The notes under the pieces were generated by a model, which was not told the origin of the DNA, searched no databases, and was given only the letters and a program-made list of their open reading frames with translations. Positions 7,395-13,169 of a stretch of DNA of 17,615 nucleotides are shown in pieces. This DNA is from Erysipelotrichaceae bacterium. GTDB lineage: Bacteria; Bacillota_I; Bacilli_A; Erysipelotrichales; Erysipelotrichaceae. The number at the start of each line of letters is the position of its first letter. The stretch's first letter is position 1. The position numbers were made by a program, and so were the translations under genes. Location: the NCBI GenBank assembly GCA_016302195.1, contig JAEDOA010000017.1, positions 1 to 17,615 of the forward strand, written 5' to 3'.

Positions 7395-7432
7395 ATACCG
7401 AGTAGTTTAAACTACTCGGTATTTTGTTGTTT
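7395..7432. terminator. bidirectional rho-independent terminator between the convergent MVP-like gene and the minus-strand nuclease gene
   Basis: Perfect 28-bp inverted repeat ATACCGAGTAGTTT|AAACTACTCGGTAT, followed by TTTTGTTGTTT on the + strand and TTTATTTTATATTATATT on the other side. It overlaps the last 5 codons of CDS 7407-8135. Confidence 0.7.
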
Positions 7433-8135
7433 CTAATAATAAATCTTCAAGACATAAATCATCGTAATAAGTATATGGAATTCTTATTAAAGGAATGTTA
7501 TTATCTTTACAATATTCATTTTTAATTTTATCTTTTTTTGTAACATTTTTTAAATATTCTTCAGTACTCCAACCTCCAGTACTTTTAAAATGTTGGATAC
7601 CATCATATTCAATTAAATATTTATTATTAACATAAAAATCAAATCGTGGAGTGCTATTATTTTCATATTTAAAATTATCAAAAGTTTTTTCTCTTATAAA
7701 AGAAATATTGTTTAAAGTAAGAATATCTTTTATTTTTTCTTCTCCTTTGGATTTTGTAACACATCCACAAGATGTTGTATGGCCATTTCTTAATTTAGTT
7801 CCATCAACAATAAGTCTTGTATGATTTATACAATCACATTCACATTCCCAGTAAATATGGTCAGATTTAATACCTTCTTTTCTTCCATATTCTTTAATTA
7901 CTGTCAAATGATTATATTTTTTTCCCACTTCATTTTTAAAAGAATTATTTCTTTGTTTTCTTAAACATCCACAAGATTTAGTATGACCGCTTCTGAGATA
8001 ATAACCAAAAACAGTAACTTCATTTCCACAATCACATTTGCACTTCCAAAATGTTTTTCCATTTTTACTTTCTGCTCTTTCAATCACTTCTAAAGAACCA
8101 AATCTTTGTCCTGTTAAATCAATTAATTTACTCAT
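7407..8135 (-). CDS. putative homing-endonuclease-like protein, paralog of 4011-4787 (zinc-ribbon repeats plus Vsr-like PD-(D/E)xK domain)
   Basis: RBS GGAGGAAAAAA before the ATG. It shares 'WKCKCDCGNEV...SCGCL', a second repeat 'WECECDCINH...SCGCV', and the C-terminus 'RFDFYVNNKYLIEYDGIQHFK...NNIPLIRIPYT', about 60% identical to the other copy's C-terminal domain. Confidence 0.6.
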   Translation of the reverse strand: MSKLIDLTGQRFGSLEVIERAESKNGKTFWKCKCDCGNEVTVFGYYLRSGHTKSCGCLRKQRNNSFKNEVGKKYNHLTVIKEYGRKEGIKSDHIYWECECDCINHTRLIVDGTKLRNGHTTSCGCVTKSKGEEKIKDILTLNNISFIREKTFDNFKYENNSTPRFDFYVNNKYLIEYDGIQHFKSTGGWSTEEYLKNVTKKDKIKNEYCKDNNIPLIRIPYTYYDDLCLEDLLLETTKYRVV

Positions 8136-8828: not shown

Positions 8829-9014
8829 ATGGGAGAAATTATCGGAATTCCGCCATCAGAATGGGAATATGAGTTCATGGTTGTTAAACCTCGTGAAGAT
8901 GGTAATTTTGATTGGGTAGCAAATTATGAAAATTATCCCGTAAAAATAGAAGATGGATGTGTAATTACTCATAATATAAGAATTGCTCATAAGCAATTGA
9001 AGAAGAATATTTGA
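8829..9014 (+). CDS. hypothetical protein (61 aa)
   Basis: RBS GGAGGA 8 nt upstream of the ATG. The stop overlaps the -35 of promoter copy 6. Confidence 0.45.
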   Translation: MGEIIGIPPSEWEYEFMVVKPREDGNFDWVANYENYPVKIEDGCVITHNIRIAHKQLKKNI

Positions 9015-9039
9015 TTTTTTATAAAAAATATATTATAAT
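9011..9039 (+). promoter_or_regulatory. conserved phage promoter, copy 6, driving the RNA ligase gene
   Basis: TTGATT-TTTTATAAAAAATATAT-TATAAT. Confidence 0.65.
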
Positions 9040-9071
9040 ATTTATATAAAAAGAAAGGAAGTATAAAGAAT

Positions 9072-10310
9072 ATGTTAAACAAACAGGGTACGAGAGAGCT
9101 AGCTTATGTAGTAAAAATAGACAGTATAGAGCCAATACCTGGAAGAGATAGGGTTGAATGTGCTAAAGTTGGCGGCTGGACGATTATGGTTCGCAAGGAC
9201 CAGTTCAAGCCTGGTGACCTGGGTATCTACTTTGAGATTGACTCTAAAGTACCTGCAAAGGAGCCTTTTATGTTCCTTGAGGGTAAGCATTTTAAGATTA
9301 AGACACAAAAGTACAAGACTCCAAATGGTCAGTTCTGGTCACAGGGTTTGCTTATGGCAGCTTCTGATTTTGGCTGGATATATACTGGAGAAGATTTTGT
9401 AACAAATGATAATAAAGTTTTTAGGCTAGGGGATTTCCTTACAAAAGAGCTTGGGATTACATATGCAGACCCTGAAGATAATTCTCGTAAGTCTAAGTCT
9501 TCAGTAGATAAGTATCAGAAGATGGCTCAGAGAATGGGTAAGAAGTTCGCTAAGCAGCCATACAGATGGCTTATGAAGAGAATCTGGGGTAAGAAGTTAC
9601 TTTTCTTCTTCTATGGTGAAAAGAAGGATACTAAGGCGTGGCCTGAGTGGGTAGTAAAGACAGACGAAGAGAGAGTTCAGAATATGCCTTGGATTCTTGA
9701 GGATAAGTCTGAGTGGTTTGCTACTGAGAAGATTGATGGTACTTCAACAACTTTTACAATGAAGGGTTGGGGAAGAAAAAGAGAGTTCTTTATCTGCTCA
9801 AGAAACGTATGTTTCAATACACCTGAGAAGATGGAGGCTGGTGCTTGGTATGACACTAATGTATATCAGGAGATGGGCATTAAGTATAACATTGAGAATG
9901 TACTTGCTACACTTATGGAATACTTTAATAAAATCGGCACTGGCGCAGTTGATTTCGTAACACTTCAGGGTGAAACATATGGTGCTGGTATTCAGAAGAG
10001 AGATTACTCACTTACTGACCACGACTTTATGGCTTTCAATGTAATTATTAAGTATGAGGGTGAGGCTCCTCGTAGATTAAATCCAAGAGAAATGACAGAT
10101 TTACTTGCGGATTATGGAGTACCTTGTGTACCAATCGTAGACGAGCATTTTGTAATGCCAGATACTGTTGATGAATTACTTGCAATTGCAACTGATGCAT
10201 CTAAAGTGGATGGCGGCATGCGTGAAGGACTTGTATTCAGGAGTGTAGATGGTGCAAAGTCATTTAAGGCTGTTTCAAATGAGTTCTTAATGAAGTATCA
10301 TAACGGTTAA
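9072..10310 (+). CDS. ATP-dependent RNA ligase (nucleotidyltransferase superfamily), with an N-terminal OB-like domain (DraRnl/NgrRnl/Rnl5-like architecture)
   Basis: RBS AAAGGAAG. Motif I 'ATEKIDGTSTTF' (KxDG with the lysine adenylylation site) at about residue 220. Downstream 'LQGETYGAG', 'REGLVFRSVDGAKSFKAVS' (motif IV/V-like EGxVxK ...K.K). The N-terminal ~100 aa 'VVKIDSIEPIPGRDRVECAKVGGWTIMVRKDQFKPGDLGIYFEIDS' resembles the extra N-domain of bacterial/phage RNA ligases. Confidence 0.7.
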   Translation: MLNKQGTRELAYVVKIDSIEPIPGRDRVECAKVGGWTIMVRKDQFKPGDLGIYFEIDSKVPAKEPFMFLEGKHFKIKTQKYKTPNGQFWSQGLLMAASDFGWIYTGEDFVTNDNKVFRLGDFLTKELGITYADPEDNSRKSKSSVDKYQKMAQRMGKKFAKQPYRWLMKRIWGKKLLFFFYGEKKDTKAWPEWVVKTDEERVQNMPWILEDKSEWFATEKIDGTSTTFTMKGWGRKREFFICSRNVCFNTPEKMEAGAWYDTNVYQEMGIKYNIENVLATLMEYFNKIGTGAVDFVTLQGETYGAGIQKRDYSLTDHDFMAFNVIIKYEGEAPRRLNPREMTDLLADYGVPCVPIVDEHFVMPDTVDELLAIATDASKVDGGMREGLVFRSVDGAKSFKAVSNEFLMKYHNG

Positions 10311-10403
10311 AATTATATGGTTTCCTAAGATGCCATAGTGTAGGTTGTAATAGGCGGGCTACTATAATATCCCTTCCATATAATCAATTATAAAAGGAGC
10401 ATT

Positions 10404-10649
10404 ATGATAATGAAAAAAATGTATATTGCTATTAACACTATCAATAAAGCAGCTGAATTTGTACAGAAAGCATCTCAAGTAGATGGTGATGTAATATGTA
10501 CTAAAGGTCGATATACTATTGATGGTAAATCAATTATGGGTATTTTTTCGATTGATATTTCAGAAGGTATAATAGTAGAATATCCAGAAACAGCTACCGA
10601 CTTTGAAGAGTATCTATCTCAGTTCAAAGTAAACAAAGTGGGGTTATAA
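10404..10649 (+). CDS. HPr-family phosphocarrier-like protein lacking the catalytic His15 but retaining the Ser46 region (Crh-like)
   Basis: RBS AAAGGAG. It aligns collinearly with HPr: 'VQKASQVDGDV' against 'VQTASKYDADV', and 'DGKSIMGIFSIDISEG' against 'NLKSIMGVMSLGIAKG'. The 'GIHARPA' active-site segment is 'TINKAAE' here (His to Asn, Arg to Ala). Confidence 0.55.
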   Translation: MIMKKMYIAINTINKAAEFVQKASQVDGDVICTKGRYTIDGKSIMGIFSIDISEGIIVEYPETATDFEEYLSQFKVNKVGL

Positions 10650-10657
10650 TACCCTGC

Positions 10658-10686
10658 TTTATTTTTTATAAAAATTATGATATAAT
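10658..10686 (+). promoter_or_regulatory. conserved phage promoter, copy 7, driving the kinase/phosphoesterase operon
   Basis: TTTATT-TTTTATAAAAATTATGA-TATAAT followed by TTATATATAAG. Confidence 0.65.
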
Positions 10687-10735
10687 TTATATATAAGAAA
10701 TAAGAAATACAAAAAATGAAAGAGAGGGATAATTT

Positions 10736-11029
10736 ATGTCTGGTTTTAGTTTAGAAAGTGAGTTTTATTGTTGTAAATGTGGAACAAAAGGAATACCTAT
10801 TGCTCGTAAAAAAGGAAAAGCGCGCGAGGCAGGTCATTTAAAAAAATTATACTGTCTAAAATGTGGTGAAGAAACAAATCATGCAGAATGTAAAGAATTT
10901 ACACATTATAGTAAAGCAGATTTTGAGTTTGAAAGACAGTATGGAAATTTTGATGAGAACCAAAATCGTATTTTAGATTATGGATTATTTAGAAATAAAA
11001 TGCACAATGAAGGAGTTGATTTGCCATGA
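10736..11029 (+). CDS. hypothetical zinc-ribbon protein (two CxxC pairs, 'CCKCG ... CLKCGEE')
   Basis: RBS AGAGAGGG. The stop overlaps the start of the kinase gene (ATGA), implying translational coupling. Confidence 0.5.
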   Translation: MSGFSLESEFYCCKCGTKGIPIARKKGKAREAGHLKKLYCLKCGEETNHAECKEFTHYSKADFEFERQYGNFDENQNRILDYGLFRNKMHNEGVDLP

Positions 11030-11544
11030 GTAAGAAGAAATTATTTGTAATGTGTGGAAATGCAGGATGTGGAAAATCTACTTGGATTCAAAATAATTTA
11101 CACACACTTGAAGGTTATACATCAGTAGTTTCTCGTGACCAGATTAGATTTTTATTTGTACCTGAAGGAGAGGATTACTTTTCAAGAGAGACTGAAGTAT
11201 ATGCTAAATTTATTGATGATATTCAATTTGGTCTTGAAAATGCGGACAATGTTATTGTAGATGCTACACATCTCAACGAAGGTTCCCGTGGTAAGTTACT
11301 TCGCAGAATTGGTCCCGCATTAAAAGGTGTTGAGGTTATTGCAGTAGTTATTAAGGTTCCTCTTAAGGTATCCTTAGACCAGAATGAGAAGAGAAAGGGT
11401 AGCCGCTCATATGTTCCTCGTTCAGTAATTCGTAGAATGTATTATCAGTTTACAATGCCTGCTTTCGAGGAAGGTTTTGATAAAATTTATGTTTACAGTC
11501 CATATAAAGAAGGTGCTAAGTACACTATTTTTGAGAAGGAATAA
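11026..11544 (+). CDS. polynucleotide 5'-kinase (T4 Pnk kinase-domain-like P-loop protein), stand-alone
   Basis: Walker A 'GNAGCGKSTW'. Collinear with the T4 Pnk kinase domain: 'VVSRDQIRF' against 'NINRDDYRQ'; 'VIVDATHLNEGSRGKLLRRI' against 'VIISDTNLNPERRLAWETF'; 'KVSLDQNEKRKGSRSYVPRSVIRRMYYQF' against '[28 protein letters not shown]'. There is no fused phosphatase domain. Confidence 0.75.
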   Translation: MSKKKLFVMCGNAGCGKSTWIQNNLHTLEGYTSVVSRDQIRFLFVPEGEDYFSRETEVYAKFIDDIQFGLENADNVIVDATHLNEGSRGKLLRRIGPALKGVEVIAVVIKVPLKVSLDQNEKRKGSRSYVPRSVIRRMYYQFTMPAFEEGFDKIYVYSPYKEGAKYTIFEKE

Positions 11545-11560
11545 AAGAGAGGTGATATAA

Positions 11561-11743
11561 ATGATATGCCCTGTAATGAGTTTCCAAAAACAATATACTT
11601 ATGAAGTAAATTGTCAAGAAGAAAATTGTGCCTGGTGGAATAAAAATTGCGGCAAGTGCGCTGTTGCAACTTTAGCCGAGAATAGTGAATCGGTAAGCGA
11701 AGCCGCCGCAGGTCAAAGAACAATATTTGTAAGGGAGGTATAA
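11561..11743 (+). CDS. hypothetical small Cys-rich protein (60 aa)
   Basis: RBS AGAGAGGTG 8 nt upstream. 'CQEENCAWWNKNCGKC'. Located between the kinase and phosphoesterase genes. Confidence 0.4.
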   Translation: MICPVMSFQKQYTYEVNCQEENCAWWNKNCGKCAVATLAENSESVSEAAAGQRTIFVREV

Positions 11744-11747
11744 ACTA

Positions 11748-12299
11748 ATGAGTCAAATATGGATAACTTCAGATTGGCATTTTTGTCATTCGCAACCATT
11801 TATTTATGAGCCTAGAGGATTCAAAAATCAATATGAAATGAATGCCGCGATTATTGAAAGACATAACGCTATTGTGCAAGCAGATGATGAAGTCTATGTT
11901 TTAGGAGATTGTATCTTAAATGATAATGAAGAAGGTATTAAATGTATTAAACAGTTAAAAGGACAAATTCATATTATTAGAGGAAATCATTGTACTGATA
12001 CACGAATCGCACTTTATAAGGAATGCTGGAATGTAGTAGAAGTATGTGATGCAAAGTGGTTAAAAATTGGAAAGCAGAGTTTCTTTCTTTCTCATTATCC
12101 TTGTCTTACAGATAATTACAATGATGACAAGCCACTCAGTAGAAAAATTATTTCATTATGTGGTCATGTTCACACATCTGATAAGTGGCATGATTGGGAT
12201 AATGGATTAATATATCATGTGGAGATGGACGCACACGGATGTAAACCTGTTTCCGCAGAACAAATTATAAATGATATAAAGGAGAAAATTAATGGGTAA
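11748..12299 (+). CDS. calcineurin-like metallophosphoesterase, candidate 2',3'-cyclic phosphodiesterase/3'-phosphatase partner of the kinase and ligase
   Basis: RBS AGGGAGG. Motifs 'TSDWHFCH' (DxH), 'VLGDCIL' (GD), 'RGNHC' (GNH), 'CGHVH' (GH.H). The same domain type serves as the phosphatase module of bacterial Pnkp. Confidence 0.65.
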   Translation: MSQIWITSDWHFCHSQPFIYEPRGFKNQYEMNAAIIERHNAIVQADDEVYVLGDCILNDNEEGIKCIKQLKGQIHIIRGNHCTDTRIALYKECWNVVEVCDAKWLKIGKQSFFLSHYPCLTDNYNDDKPLSRKIISLCGHVHTSDKWHDWDNGLIYHVEMDAHGCKPVSAEQIINDIKEKING

Positions 12300-12564
12300 A
12301 AAAGATGTTTCAGGATGGGCTATTGTTGGTGTTATTGCATTTTTTGTTGTAGTGATTATTATTGAGCCTGCCTTATTATTTTGGCTTGGATACTTCAGCG
12401 GCTGGTTAGCAAAACTGGTCATTGGTACTAAATTAGTAACTGCAATTAATATGGTATTTGGTACAGCTTTTACCGCAGATATGCTTCCAATGATTGGCGG
12501 TGCTCTTGGTTGGATTGGAGGTTTCTTCAAATCAATTAGTACTACATCAAACAATAAAAAATAA
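12292..12564 (+). CDS. small membrane protein (two predicted TM helices)
   Basis: RBS AAAGGAGAA. The start overlaps the upstream stop. Hydrophobic stretches 'WAIVGVIAFFVVVIIIEPALLFWLGYF' and 'FGTAFTADMLPMIGGALGWIGGFF'. Confidence 0.5.
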   Translation: MGKKDVSGWAIVGVIAFFVVVIIIEPALLFWLGYFSGWLAKLVIGTKLVTAINMVFGTAFTADMLPMIGGALGWIGGFFKSISTTSNNKK

Positions 12565-12574
12565 TAAATAATAT

Positions 12575-12618
12575 ATACCCAGGTTACCTATATAAGGAAA
12601 CCTGGGTATTTTATTTTT
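12575..12618 (+). terminator. rho-independent terminator
   Basis: 10-bp stem TACCCAGGTT/AACCTGGGTA with a 13-nt loop, followed by TTTTATTTTT. Confidence 0.7.
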
Positions 12619-12677
12619 ACGATGAGGGTGACGGTGCCGAATTTTCCGCGTACCTCTAGGTATTTTTTTTACCAAAT

Positions 12678-12706
12678 TTGACAAATATATTTTTTTTTGG
12701 TATAAT
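12678..12706 (+). promoter_or_regulatory. canonical sigma70-type promoter (second promoter class): TTGACA, 17 bp, TGgTATAAT
   Basis: Exact TTGACA and TATAAT hexamers with an extended -10 TG. It lacks the conserved ATAAAAATTATGA spacer of copies 1-7. Confidence 0.65.
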
Positions 12707-12737
12707 ATAGATAGTAATTGAAAGGAGAAGTTTACAT

Positions 12738-13169
12738 ATGCGTTTTTTAGATAGTGGTACTATAAAAGAGACTGGCTATTCTACAGTTGTAATTGAACAT
12801 AAGGGAAATAAGTATGTGGGCCAGGCTAAATGCCACCCAGACGACACATTCTCTGAATTTACTGGATGTAGATATGCACAAGAAAGAGCTGAAATTAATG
12901 CTTTAAAAGATGAATGGAAACAAAAAAAGCATGACTGTGATGAGTGTAGAAAATACTTAATCGCAGTTTCTCAATATGCAGGTTTCGATAAAGAAAGTTC
13001 TACAGCAAAGGCGATGTTCCGACAGTTGAACCGCCGCATTAAAGAAGTGAATAAATTAGCAGAAATTATTAGTCAAAAACAATTTAATCTTCAAATTGCA
13101 ATTAGACAACAAGATGGTTTTAATAGTAAAATTGAACAAATGAGATTAAATGATAATAAAGAAAATTAA
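12738..13169 (+). CDS. hypothetical protein (143 aa), first gene of the PIN-PhoH operon
   Basis: RBS GAAAGGAGAAG. No family recognised. Confidence 0.5.
   Translation: MRFLDSGTIKETGYSTVVIEHKGNKYVGQAKCHPDDTFSEFTGCRYAQERAEINALKDEWKQKKHDCDECRKYLIAVSQYAGFDKESSTAKAMFRQLNRRIKEVNKLAEIISQKQFNLQIAIRQQDGFNSKIEQMRLNDNKEN

What the first reader, a model, noticed from the sequence alone, without database searches (positions are those of the whole stretch)
10404..10649. HPr-family protein with His15 replaced (Crh-like): possible hijack of host carbon-catabolite signalling
The ORF aligns along its whole length with HPr. The His15 phosphorylation site is Asn and Arg17 is Ala, while the Ser46 region (KSIMG) is intact. 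This mirrors Bacillus Crh, where His15 is Gln and the protein acts only through HprK-dependent Ser46 phosphorylation and CcpA binding. A phage Crh mimic could titrate HprK/CcpA or other HPr partners and so rewire host metabolism during infection. It sits between the RNA ligase and the kinase operon.
Basis: inference. Interest (0 to 1): 0.65.

Follow-up and report, generated by a model that had tools for sequence, protein, structure and literature searches.

The report
Phage copy of histidine-less HPr-like protein
A small phage gene encodes a protein with the fold of the bacterial sugar-signalling protein HPr but without its phosphate-carrying histidine; it belongs to a large family, for which I found no published study, shared by gut Clostridia and their large phages, so the phage probably uses it to tap into host metabolic signalling, though its partner is unknown.

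Summary

The protein has no histidine at all. The helix N-cap equivalent to His15 is Thr12, Arg17 is Asn14, and the active-site loop is three residues shorter than in HPr. The KSIMG motif (Ser43 = Ser46) is intact.

It is not Crh. It fails the NCBIfam Crh equivalog model (36.8 against 123 bits) and lacks Arg17-Pro18, which Crh keeps. It belongs instead to a large clade of His-less HPr-like proteins (887 clusters at E<=1e-10). That clade is a core chromosomal gene of Clostridia, sitting between mtaB-like and thiI genes. It also recurs in at least 135 viral contigs, spanning 32 lineages in my sample.

Y-x-x-D-x-K-S-I-M-G is nearly invariant across the clade, while the helix-1 face diverges.

Best reading: a non-PTS, protein-binding regulatory mimic that uses the Ser46 face and is possibly a host HprK/P substrate or decoy. 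Canonical CcpA co-repression is unlikely. No experiment or paper on this clade was found.

The parts
10311..10409 (+). Upstream intergenic region with the ribosome-binding site AAGGAG (10395-10400). It separates the gene from the RNA ligase stop at 10310.
   Evidence: Sequence read directly. The consensus scan did not call a strong promoter here.
10410..10649 (+). Coding sequence of the His-less HPr-like protein (79 aa plus stop). The ORF as listed starts at the alternative ATG 10404 (81 aa).
   Evidence: dN/dS is 0.16-0.19 against homologs in L165 and L167.
10437..10445 (+). Codons for Thr12-Ile13-Asn14 (81-aa numbering). Thr12 is the helix-1 N-cap, equivalent to His15. Asn14 is equivalent to Arg17. 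The loop before it is 3 residues shorter than in HPr.
   Evidence: HMM register, MAFFT with HPr and Crh, profile alignment, predicted helix boundaries.
10512..10541 (+). Nearly invariant clade motif Y-T-I-D-G-K-S-I-M-G (Tyr37..Gly46). Ser43, at nt 10530-10532, is the Ser46 equivalent and the N-cap of helix 2.
   Evidence: Column frequencies over 268 clade members: Y 96%, D 97%, K 98%, S 99%, I 92%, M 93%, G 99%. Invariant columns.
10635..10670 (+). Terminator-like hairpin (10 pairs) overlapping the stop codon, followed by a T-run. It makes the gene a likely monocistronic unit, separate from the downstream kinase genes.
   Evidence: 1 site found against 0.3 expected in shuffles.
9072..10310 (+). 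Context: RNA ligase, the upstream neighbour. It is not part of the HPr-like unit.
   Evidence: Pfam RNA_ligase and PHA02142. phrog_968.
10736..12299 (+). Context: downstream block of a 97-aa zinc-ribbon protein (10736-11029), a polynucleotide-kinase-type P-loop kinase (11026-11544), a small ORF, and a metallophosphoesterase (11748-12299).
   Evidence: Pfam AAA_33 and Metallophos_2. phrog_1257, phrog_505 and phrog_547. The same gene order occurs in related phages.

Best explanation
The gene encodes a phage-borne member of a large clade of HPr-fold proteins on which I found no published work. The clade lacks the phosphotransfer histidine, lacks Arg17, and has an active-site loop three residues shorter than HPr. 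It keeps an almost invariant Y-x-x-D-x-K-S-I-M-G around the Ser46-equivalent serine.

The clade is a single-copy core chromosomal gene in many Clostridia (Lachnospiraceae, Oscillospiraceae, Ruminococcus and relatives). It has been carried for a long time by large phages from the same (mainly gut) habitats, some isolated on the Clostridia member Enterocloster bolteae.

Shown: the protein cannot act in the PTS phosphorelay, because it has no His. It is a real, selected and probably separately transcribed gene.

Inferred: it acts by protein-protein binding through the conserved helix-2 (Ser46) face. This is the face that HPr and Crh present to HprK/P and to their regulatory partners. During infection it would mimic or compete with the host's own His-less paralogue, or with host HPr. 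The most likely first partner is the host HPr kinase/phosphorylase, as substrate or pseudosubstrate (my estimate about 0.4-0.5). That would shift the host's Ser-phospho-HPr signalling of carbon and energy status.

Its downstream partner is unknown. It is probably not CcpA bound in the canonical Crh/HPr manner, because the helix-1 determinants are absent.
For: Fold and homology.

Loss of the PTS site: there is no His in the sequence. None of the 148 best library hits carries H-x-R-P. The loop is shortened and position 17 is D/N/E across 268 members.

Constraint on the Ser46 face: K45, S46, I47, M48 and G49 are 92-99% conserved in both the bacterial and the phage copies, while helix-1 surface positions vary more in phages. 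In CcpA-HPr complexes Ile47, Met48 and Met51 pack on CcpA, and P-Ser46 contacts Arg304 and Lys308 (PMC10287919). HprK/P binds HPr through its active site plus the C-terminal helix of a neighbouring subunit (PMC9399212).

Host origin and breadth: there are 887 clusters at E<=1e-10. At least 600 genome stretches matched, and the best 80 are all Clostridia or unclassified Bacillota bins. The housekeeping neighbourhood is conserved: a MiaB/MtaB-type gene in 56 of 77 loci, ThiI in 38, then cysteine desulfurase, RuvX, PrmA, RsmE and RNase J.

Phage recurrence: 9 GenBank phage records, including six Enterocloster phages. 135 IMG/VR contigs carry it, and the 85 viral loci I analysed fall into 32 lineages. 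The window protein lies in a 59-sequence clade made up only of viral and metagenome sequences.

Real gene: dN/dS is 0.16-0.19. Synteny is kept in related phages down to 51% identity. It has its own terminator-like hairpin.

HprK in this host range: Faecalibacterium prausnitzii, a member of Oscillospiraceae, has an active HPrK that phosphorylates Ser46 of its HPr2 (PMC11906611).
Against: No experiment exists for any member of the clade, and I found no paper on it.

Ser46 is also the N-cap of helix 2, so its conservation could be structural only.

The His15/helix-1 region that HprK/P's neighbouring subunit contacts is remodelled here.

The clade has nearly invariant acidic residues at HPr positions 43 and 54, flanking the serine. 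They are absent from HPr and Crh and might disfavour phosphorylation, or even stand in for it.

Gene neighbourhoods give no metabolic clue. In bacteria the gene is alone on its strand among tRNA-modification and RNA-metabolism genes. In phages it lies among RNA-repair or nucleotide-metabolism genes.

Co-occurrence with hprK across genomes could not be tested.
Confidence: 0.5

Rival explanations
1. One reading: a Crh mimic. Host HprK/P phosphorylates the serine, and the phospho-protein binds CcpA as a co-repressor, or titrates it, rewiring catabolite repression.
For: KSIMG is identical to that of Firmicute HPr and Crh. Ile47, Met48 and a hydrophobic residue at position 51, which pack on CcpA, are kept. 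The best NCBIfam hit is the Crh model, and Crh chains are among the best PDB hits.
Against: The Crh equivalog model is failed by a wide margin, 36.8 against 123 bits. Arg17 is replaced by Asn here and by Asp, Asn or Glu across the clade, and the His15 loop is shortened. Arg17 and His15 are recorded as participants in CcpA signal processing (Horstmann 2007 title; details from my memory). At least one family of the host range, represented by F. prausnitzii, may lack a typical CcpA and uses HPr(Ser-P) with FruR instead (PMC11906611).
Confidence: 0.12
2. A kinase-independent adaptor or decoy. The serine is only a helix cap. The protein binds the unknown partner of the host's His-less paralogue, or a host HPr partner, constitutively. 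The invariant Asp residues beside the serine may imitate the phosphorylated state.
For: The clade-specific invariant residues Tyr40, Asp43 and Asp54 (HPr numbering) are not shared with HPr or Crh. Bacterial copies have their own conserved helix-1 surface, I-D-K-V-K, with Lys at position 20 in 98% of them, which implies a dedicated partner. Phage copies keep the helix-2 face but vary on helix 1, as expected for a selective mimic. As far as I recall, unphosphorylated Crh binds MgsA in B. subtilis; the passage says only that Crh may have roles beyond CCR and lists the Landmann 2011 paper on Crh and the methylglyoxal bypass.
Against: The exact retention of K-S-I-M-G, the HprK/P target motif of Firmicute HPr, is most simply explained by retained kinase recognition. 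There is no direct evidence for any partner.
Confidence: 0.25
3. An accessory factor of the phage RNA-repair cassette (RNA ligase, polynucleotide kinase, phosphoesterase, Thg1-like enzyme), for example a regulator of the P-loop kinase.
For: Its position between the RNA ligase and the kinase is conserved in this phage clade down to 51% identity. P-loop kinases recur within a few genes of it in 6 other phage lineages.
Against: It has its own terminator-like hairpin. In L165 the upstream gene is not an RNA ligase. In most other phage lineages it lies with NrdD, NrdG, ThyA, ThyX and DHFR and not with RNA-repair genes. The bacterial copies are not linked to such cassettes.
Confidence: 0.07
4. A small-molecule-binding domain that reuses the HPr fold, like the 3H domain of NiaR.
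Confidence: 0.03

Closest known systems
Crh (catabolite repression HPr) of Bacillus subtilis
   Same: It has the HPr fold, has no phosphorylatable His15, keeps the K-S-I-M-G Ser46 motif, and has no possible PTS role.
   Different: Crh keeps the full G-L-Q-A-R-P loop with Arg17 and Pro18. Here the loop is 3 residues shorter, with Thr at the cap and Asn at position 17. Identity to Crh is only 30%. The NCBIfam Crh equivalog model gives 36.8 bits against a 123-bit cutoff. The histidine was therefore probably lost independently of Crh.
HPr (PtsH), PF00381
   Different: It has no His15 and no Arg17, so it cannot be phosphorylated by Enzyme I or pass phosphate on to EIIA. It has clade-specific invariant Tyr40, Asp43 and Asp54.
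Chromosomal His-less HPr-like proteins of Clostridia (e.g. Lacrimispora xylanisolvens DSM 3808, locus L053 6001-6234; Pseudobutyrivibrio ruminis, L074)
   Same: Same clade. Identity to the window protein is 35-45%. They share the shortened loop, the invariant motif and a length of about 76-80 aa.
   Different: They sit in a conserved housekeeping locus between a MiaB/MtaB-type gene and thiI. They have a strongly conserved helix-1 surface (I-D-K-V-K) and a K-P after helix 2, both of which the phage copy lacks. The one copy tested (L. xylanisolvens) falls below Pfam's cutoff, at 20.6 bits.
Enterocloster phage PMBT24 'phosphocarrier protein' (WDQ45469.1) and homologs in phages CB457P1/P2 and CB473P1-3
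   Same: They are phage-borne members of the same clade, 36-39% identical over about 90% of the length, with the same motif.
   Different: They belong to a different phage lineage (about 100 kb) and a different neighbourhood, lying after a SleB-like gene and before recA. The gene is annotated but not discussed in the genome paper.
Regulatory HPr paralogues: F. prausnitzii HPr2 and B. cereus Bc1009
   Same: They are HPr-type proteins specialised for regulation and not for sugar transport (PMC11906611, PMC9912610).
   Different: HPr2 still has His15 and Ser46 and works with FruR. Bc1009 lies in the sigB cluster of the B. cereus group, and I did not have its sequence to compare.

Membership tests
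HPr family (Pfam PF00381, PTS-HPr) | Score at or above the Pfam gathering cutoff | tested here: met
   30.8 bits against a cutoff of 23, E=3.1e-7.
HPr family (Pfam PF00381, PTS-HPr) | Open-faced beta-sandwich fold with beta-alpha-beta-beta-alpha-beta-alpha order | tested here: met
HPr family (Pfam PF00381, PTS-HPr) | Active-site His15 at the N-cap of helix 1, the phosphotransfer site | tested here: not met
   There is no His anywhere in the protein. The cap residue is Thr12.
HPr family (Pfam PF00381, PTS-HPr) | Conserved Arg17 (and Pro18) next to the active site | tested here: not met
   Asn14-Lys15 occupy these positions. The clade has D, N or E at position 17.
HPr family (Pfam PF00381, PTS-HPr) | Phosphoryl transfer from Enzyme I to EIIA | not testable with these tools
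   Excluded in practice by the absence of His, but not assayed.
Crh (NCBIfam NF010354 equivalog) | Score at or above the curated equivalog cutoff | tested here: not met
   36.8 bits against a cutoff of 123.
Crh (NCBIfam NF010354 equivalog) | Full-length active-site loop with Gln15 replacing His15 and with Arg17-Pro18 kept | tested here: not met
   The loop is 3 residues shorter and Arg17 and Pro18 are absent.
Crh (NCBIfam NF010354 equivalog) | Ser46 within K-S-I-M-G | tested here: met
   K42-S43-I44-M45-G46.
Crh (NCBIfam NF010354 equivalog) | Phosphorylation of Ser46 by HprK/P, and binding of the phospho-form to CcpA | not testable with these tools
   This needs biochemistry or complex modelling.
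His-less HPr-like clade of Clostridia and their phages (defined here) | About 72-83 aa, shortened beta1-alpha1 loop with a Ser/Thr cap, no H-x-R-P, and the motif [GS]-R-Y-x-[IV]-D-[AG]-K-S-I-M-G-x-[FM]-S-[LI]-D | tested here: met
   The window protein reads G-R-Y-T-I-D-G-K-S-I-M-G-I-F-S-I-D. It is 35-50% identical to members, and the best 150 library hits all share these features.
His-less HPr-like clade of Clostridia and their phages (defined here) | Conserved bacterial helix-1 surface I-D-K-V-K and K-P after helix 2 | tested here: not met
   The window protein has I-N-K-A-A and E-G there. These features mark the chromosomal subgroup, not the phage subgroup.

The most novel reading that the evidence does not exclude
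Gut Clostridia have a third branch of HPr signalling, alongside HPr and Crh, that I could not find described. It would be a dedicated His-less paralogue, either serine-only or a constitutive phospho-mimic through its invariant flanking Asp residues, with its own still unknown partner. Many lineages of large phages would have carried diverged copies for a long time in order to take over that branch during infection.
Probability: 0.3. Interest if true: 0.7.

Novelty: new variant of a known kind. Interest (0 to 1): 0.5.

Why it matters
HPr and its serine phosphorylation are the central read-out of carbon and energy status in Firmicutes.

A histidine-less HPr paralogue is a core gene of the dominant gut Clostridia. 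The one chromosomal copy tested scores below Pfam's cutoff, so such copies may often go unannotated. At least 32 phage lineages also carry it. Together this points to a regulatory interaction that has not been studied and that phages find worth copying.

A culturable host-phage pair, Enterocloster bolteae with phage PMBT24 or the CB-series phages, carries a homolog. The question 'what does this protein bind, and does HprK/P phosphorylate it?' is therefore directly testable.

If the phage copy is a kinase decoy or a partner mimic, it would be an example of phage control of host catabolite signalling by molecular mimicry. That differs from control by carrying metabolic enzymes.

Tried and rejected
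- **Near-identical DNA search.** Window 9000-13000 against GenBank phages gave no match.
- **PHROGs and PADLOC.** Neither library had a family for the HPr-like protein.
- **Cluster look-up for source names.** None of the ten clusters carried a name.
- **Literature.** Searches for a His-less HPr-like protein in Clostridia or for a phage-encoded HPr found nothing specific. The PMBT24 genome paper does not mention the gene. The T. saccharolyticum, PTS-evolution, E. rectale and sigma-54 papers were not relevant to this clade.
- **HprK/P-HPr complex paper (PMC129691).** It is not held, so the HprK/P contact residues rest on a secondary description and on memory.
- **Pseudogene or chance ORF.** Rejected on dN/dS of 0.16-0.19 and conserved synteny.
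- **Recent capture of a host gene.** Rejected because the window protein sits in a clade of only viral and metagenome sequences and is at most 45% identical to any bacterial copy sampled.
- **The His in relatives P0057-P0059 (I-H-D) as a displaced active site.** Considered and rejected. It aligns with HPr position 17, inside the first helical turn, lacks the A-R-P context, and is absent from the window protein.

Full report
**The observation**

The window has an ATG-to-stop ORF at 10404..10649 on the + strand, 81 aa. A Shine-Dalgarno AAGGAG lies at 10395-10400, only 3 nt from the first ATG and 9 nt from the ATG at 10410. Fifty-one of the 67 close homologs in the protein collection are called as 79-aa proteins beginning MKKMY. 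The real product is therefore most likely 79 aa, from 10410.

The gene has 93 nt of non-coding sequence upstream of the first ATG (10404). A terminator-like hairpin at 10635-10660 followed by a T-run overlaps its stop codon; one such site was found against 0.3 expected in shuffles. It therefore looks like its own transcription unit. It is not formally part of the downstream kinase genes.

**Is it HPr-like?**

Yes, by every test.

- Pfam PF00381 scores 30.8 bits, above the gathering score of 23 (E=3.1e-7).
- phmmer against PDB sequences finds only HPr and Crh chains at the top, 2.9e-6 to 1e-4.
- A profile of the protein's own family reaches 1.9e-10.
- AlphaFold2 with an 8-sequence alignment gave pLDDT 91.2. 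With 37 sequences it gave 94.7, with all five models at 93 or above.
- Both models have the order strand 2-6, helix 11-22, strands 29-32 and 35-38, helix 42-46, strand 54-58, helix 63-72 (79-aa numbering). This is the HPr topology.
- The first 38 Foldseek hits in the PDB are all HPr or Crh.

**The residue mapping**

HMMER aligns F19-V20-Q21 with F22-V23-Q24 of Crh and HPr without gaps through to Ser43 = Ser46. The predicted helix 1 (residues 11-22 of the 79-aa form) superposes on what I recall as helix 16-27 of HPr. The helix N-cap, which is His15 in HPr, is therefore Thr12. Arg17 corresponds to Asn14, and Pro18 to Lys15.

MAFFT with B. subtilis HPr and Crh and E. coli HPr places a 3-residue deletion in the loop that carries G-[IL]-H. 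HMMER's profile alignment leaves 'lharp' of a true HPr unmatched.

The protein contains no histidine at all and has a single arginine (Arg36). The whole G-x-H-x-R-P signature is missing, not merely substituted. K42-S43-I44-M45-G46 is intact.

**What family is it?**

A full HMMER scan of 1.84 billion representative proteins with a profile of the window protein and its relatives found 3,562 clusters at E<=1e-3 and 887 at E<=1e-10. I read all of the best 150. Apart from one long repetitive false positive, they are proteins of about 70-110 aa or obvious read-through fusions. None has H-x-R-P, and nearly all have K-S-[IL]-[ML] at the same place.

The 80 best loci are all Clostridia or unclassified Bacillota/bacterial bins. 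They include Lachnospiraceae, Oscillospiraceae, Ruminococcus, Blautia, Roseburia, Agathobacter, Hungatella and Enterocloster. Cultured examples are Lacrimispora xylanisolvens, Pseudobutyrivibrio ruminis and Anaerotruncus massiliensis.

I called ORFs in these loci and clustered the neighbours.

- The gene sits alone on its strand in a conserved housekeeping neighbourhood.
- A UPF0004 plus radical-SAM methylthiotransferase of the MiaB/MtaB type is next to it in 56 of 77 loci.
- ThiI is on the other side in 38 loci.
- Beyond those lie a class-V aminotransferase (cysteine desulfurase type), an RsmE-type methyltransferase, PrmA, IreB, RuvX and RNase J.
- These names were verified with Pfam on two loci.

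This is a chromosomal core gene, not prophage cargo. The L. xylanisolvens protein scores only 20.6 bits on PF00381, below the cutoff. That may be why the clade has gone unnoticed.

**Phage copies**

tblastn against GenBank phages finds 9 records. They include six Enterocloster bolteae phages of about 100 kb. One of them, PMBT24, annotates the gene as 'phosphocarrier protein', but its genome paper does not discuss it.

IMG/VR holds 135 contigs with a relative, many of them 80-270 kb. Together with the window and the GenBank phage loci, the 85 viral loci I analysed fall into 32 lineages at 80% identity.

In 10 lineages the gene lies within six genes of an anaerobic ribonucleotide reductase. NrdG-type activase, NT5C nucleotidase, ThyX, ThyA, DHFR, nucleoside deoxyribosyltransferase and small P-loop kinases also recur nearby.

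The window's own phage type is common in gut metagenomes; one 90% cluster alone stands for 360 sequences. Related contigs keep the order RNA ligase (or another gene), HPr-like, zinc-ribbon protein, AAA_33 kinase, metallophosphoesterase, PIN-PhoH down to 51% protein identity.

Between the window and two such relatives dN/dS is 0.16-0.19, with synonymous sites near saturation. The gene is therefore maintained by selection.

In a neighbour-joining tree of 268 unique clade members, the window protein lies inside a group of 59 sequences that are all viral or metagenomic, with none from a bacterial genome. It is 40% (median) and at most 45% identical to bacterial copies, 30% to Crh and 26% to B. subtilis HPr. 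The tree rests on about 75 columns, so it is only indicative. It argues against a recent capture.

**Conservation pattern**

Figures are over the 268 members, in HPr numbering.

| Position | Residue | Frequency |
|---|---|---|
| 40 | Tyr | 96% |
| 43 | Asp | 97% |
| 45 | Lys | 98% |
| 46 | Ser | 99% |
| 47 | Ile | 92% |
| 48 | Met | 93% |
| 49 | Gly | 99% |
| 52 | Ser | 98% |
| 54 | Asp | 89% |

Position 17 is Asp, Asn or Glu and never Arg among the four commonest residues listed.

Bacterial copies also share a tight helix-1 surface, I-D-K-V-K, with Lys at position 20 in 98%, and a K-P after helix 2. Phage copies, including this one (I-N-K-A-A and E-G), vary at those places but keep the helix-2 face.

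In HPr and Crh that face carries the HprK/P target serine. It also carries the hydrophobic residues Ile47, Met48 and Met51 that pack against CcpA, while P-Ser46 binds CcpA Arg304 and Lys308 (PMC10287919). HprK/P holds HPr with its active site and with the C-terminal helix of a neighbouring subunit (PMC9399212). As far as I recall from the original structure paper, which I could not read, that helix contacts the His15/helix-1 region.

**Mechanism**

Shown: the protein cannot be a PTS phosphocarrier.

Inferred: it is a binding module that uses the Ser46 face. My preferred reading is that it is recognised by the host HPr kinase/phosphorylase as substrate or pseudosubstrate. Overall confidence in this package is 0.5, of which the kinase step alone is about 0.4-0.5. 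It would thereby mimic or compete with the host's own His-less paralogue or with HPr, changing what the cell reads as its carbon and energy state while the phage replicates.

A culturable representative of the host range, F. prausnitzii, has an active HPrK and uses HPr(Ser-P) with FruR, not with a typical CcpA (PMC11906611). The downstream partner in Clostridia therefore need not be CcpA.

The Crh-type CcpA model gets 0.12. Arg17 and the His15 loop are gone, and position 17 is usually acidic. Both residues take part in CcpA signal processing (title of Horstmann et al. 2007; my recollection is that Arg17 is needed for CcpA activation).

A kinase-independent adaptor gets 0.25. In that model the serine is only a helix cap and the invariant flanking aspartates shape, or even imitate, a charged surface.

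A role inside the RNA-repair cassette gets 0.07. The synteny is limited to this phage clade, and the gene has its own terminator.

**Comparison with the known, and novelty**

It works like a regulatory HPr paralogue, and in logic it resembles Crh: the histidine is lost and the serine is kept. It is not a member of the Crh family, because the equivalog cutoff and the Arg17-Pro18 loop features were tested and not met.

It is a member of the broad HPr superfamily by fold and by Pfam score, while failing the two catalytic-site features.

I found no paper on this clade in bacteria or phages in the searchable library. That library lacks most subscription journals, so this is not proof of absence.

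I rate it a new variant of a known kind, with interest 0.5. The phage gene itself is one of many such copies. The finding does expose a widespread clade on which I found no published work, with a testable question and a culturable host-phage system.

Noticed in passing
window 1828-2643, 9072-10310, 11026-11544, 11748-12299: A dispersed RNA-repair gene set: a Thg1-like tRNA-His guanylyltransferase (PF04446, 109.7 bits; phrog_4717), an RNA ligase (PF09414 and PHA02142 OB-fold; phrog_968), a polynucleotide-kinase-type P-loop kinase (AAA_33; phrog_505) and a metallophosphoesterase (phrog_547). This would fit a phage counter-measure against host tRNA or anticodon nucleases. No tRNA genes are in the window.
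   Followed up: partly
window 4950-7376 (+): An 808-aa protein with a major-vault-protein shoulder domain (PF11978, 68 bits) and weak SPFH/Band_7 similarity. It is conserved in related phages (L167, L169, L170). It has no PHROG and no PADLOC hit. This is an unusual protein for a phage.
   Followed up: partly
window 4011-4787 (-) and 7407-8135 (-): Two paralogous reverse-strand genes flank the vault-like gene. Each has repeated C-x-C-x-C-G zinc-ribbon-like motifs and a C-terminal part weakly similar to DUF2726. Similar proteins occur near the HPr-like gene in three other phage lineages. They may be mobile nuclease genes.
   Followed up: partly
window 10736-11029 (+): A 97-aa zinc-ribbon protein lies directly after the HPr-like gene and overlaps the start of the kinase gene. 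It matches phrog_1257, 'ribosome associated inhibitor A; zinc finger domain' (host-takeover category). It is conserved at this position in related phages.
   Followed up: partly
window 13209-14459 (+): A PIN-PhoH fusion protein (PF13638 plus PF02562; phrog_2765). Its best isolate relatives are Geobacillus virus E3, an Alicyclobacillus phage and large Bacillus phages, at 33-44% identity. This points to a large Bacillota phage. Window GC is 29-34%.
   Followed up: partly
window 14511-14909 and 14924-15790 (+): A two-transmembrane protein with weak SLATT similarity, probably a holin, is followed by a CHAP plus PG_binding_1 endolysin. Related phages carry an Amidase_2 plus SH3 endolysin at the same place (L165), which indicates lysis-module swapping.
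   Followed up: no
window 16753-17343 (+): A 196-aa ORF whose N-terminus (YVYLHLNKINGKKYYGIT) looks like a GIY-YIG homing-endonuclease motif. A Pfam-confirmed GIY-YIG gene sits next to the RNA ligase in the related locus L169.
   Followed up: no
P0057-P0059 (loci L165 4214-4459, L167 8001-8246): The closest divergent relatives, 63-68% identical, have a His where the window protein has Asn14 (I-H-D). This is HPr position 17, inside the first turn of helix 1, not the cap. The meaning is unknown.
   Followed up: partly
P0068 (157 aa, metagenome): A tandem duplication of the His-less HPr-like domain within one protein, with two matched stretches.
   Followed up: no
L053 6001-6234 and other bacterial loci L005-L084: The chromosomal homolog tested (L. 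xylanisolvens) scores below Pfam's PF00381 cutoff, at 20.6 bits. Across the bacterial loci the gene is the only one on its strand, between a MiaB/MtaB-type gene and thiI. IreB, a regulatory phosphoprotein, lies nearby in many of the loci.
   Followed up: partly
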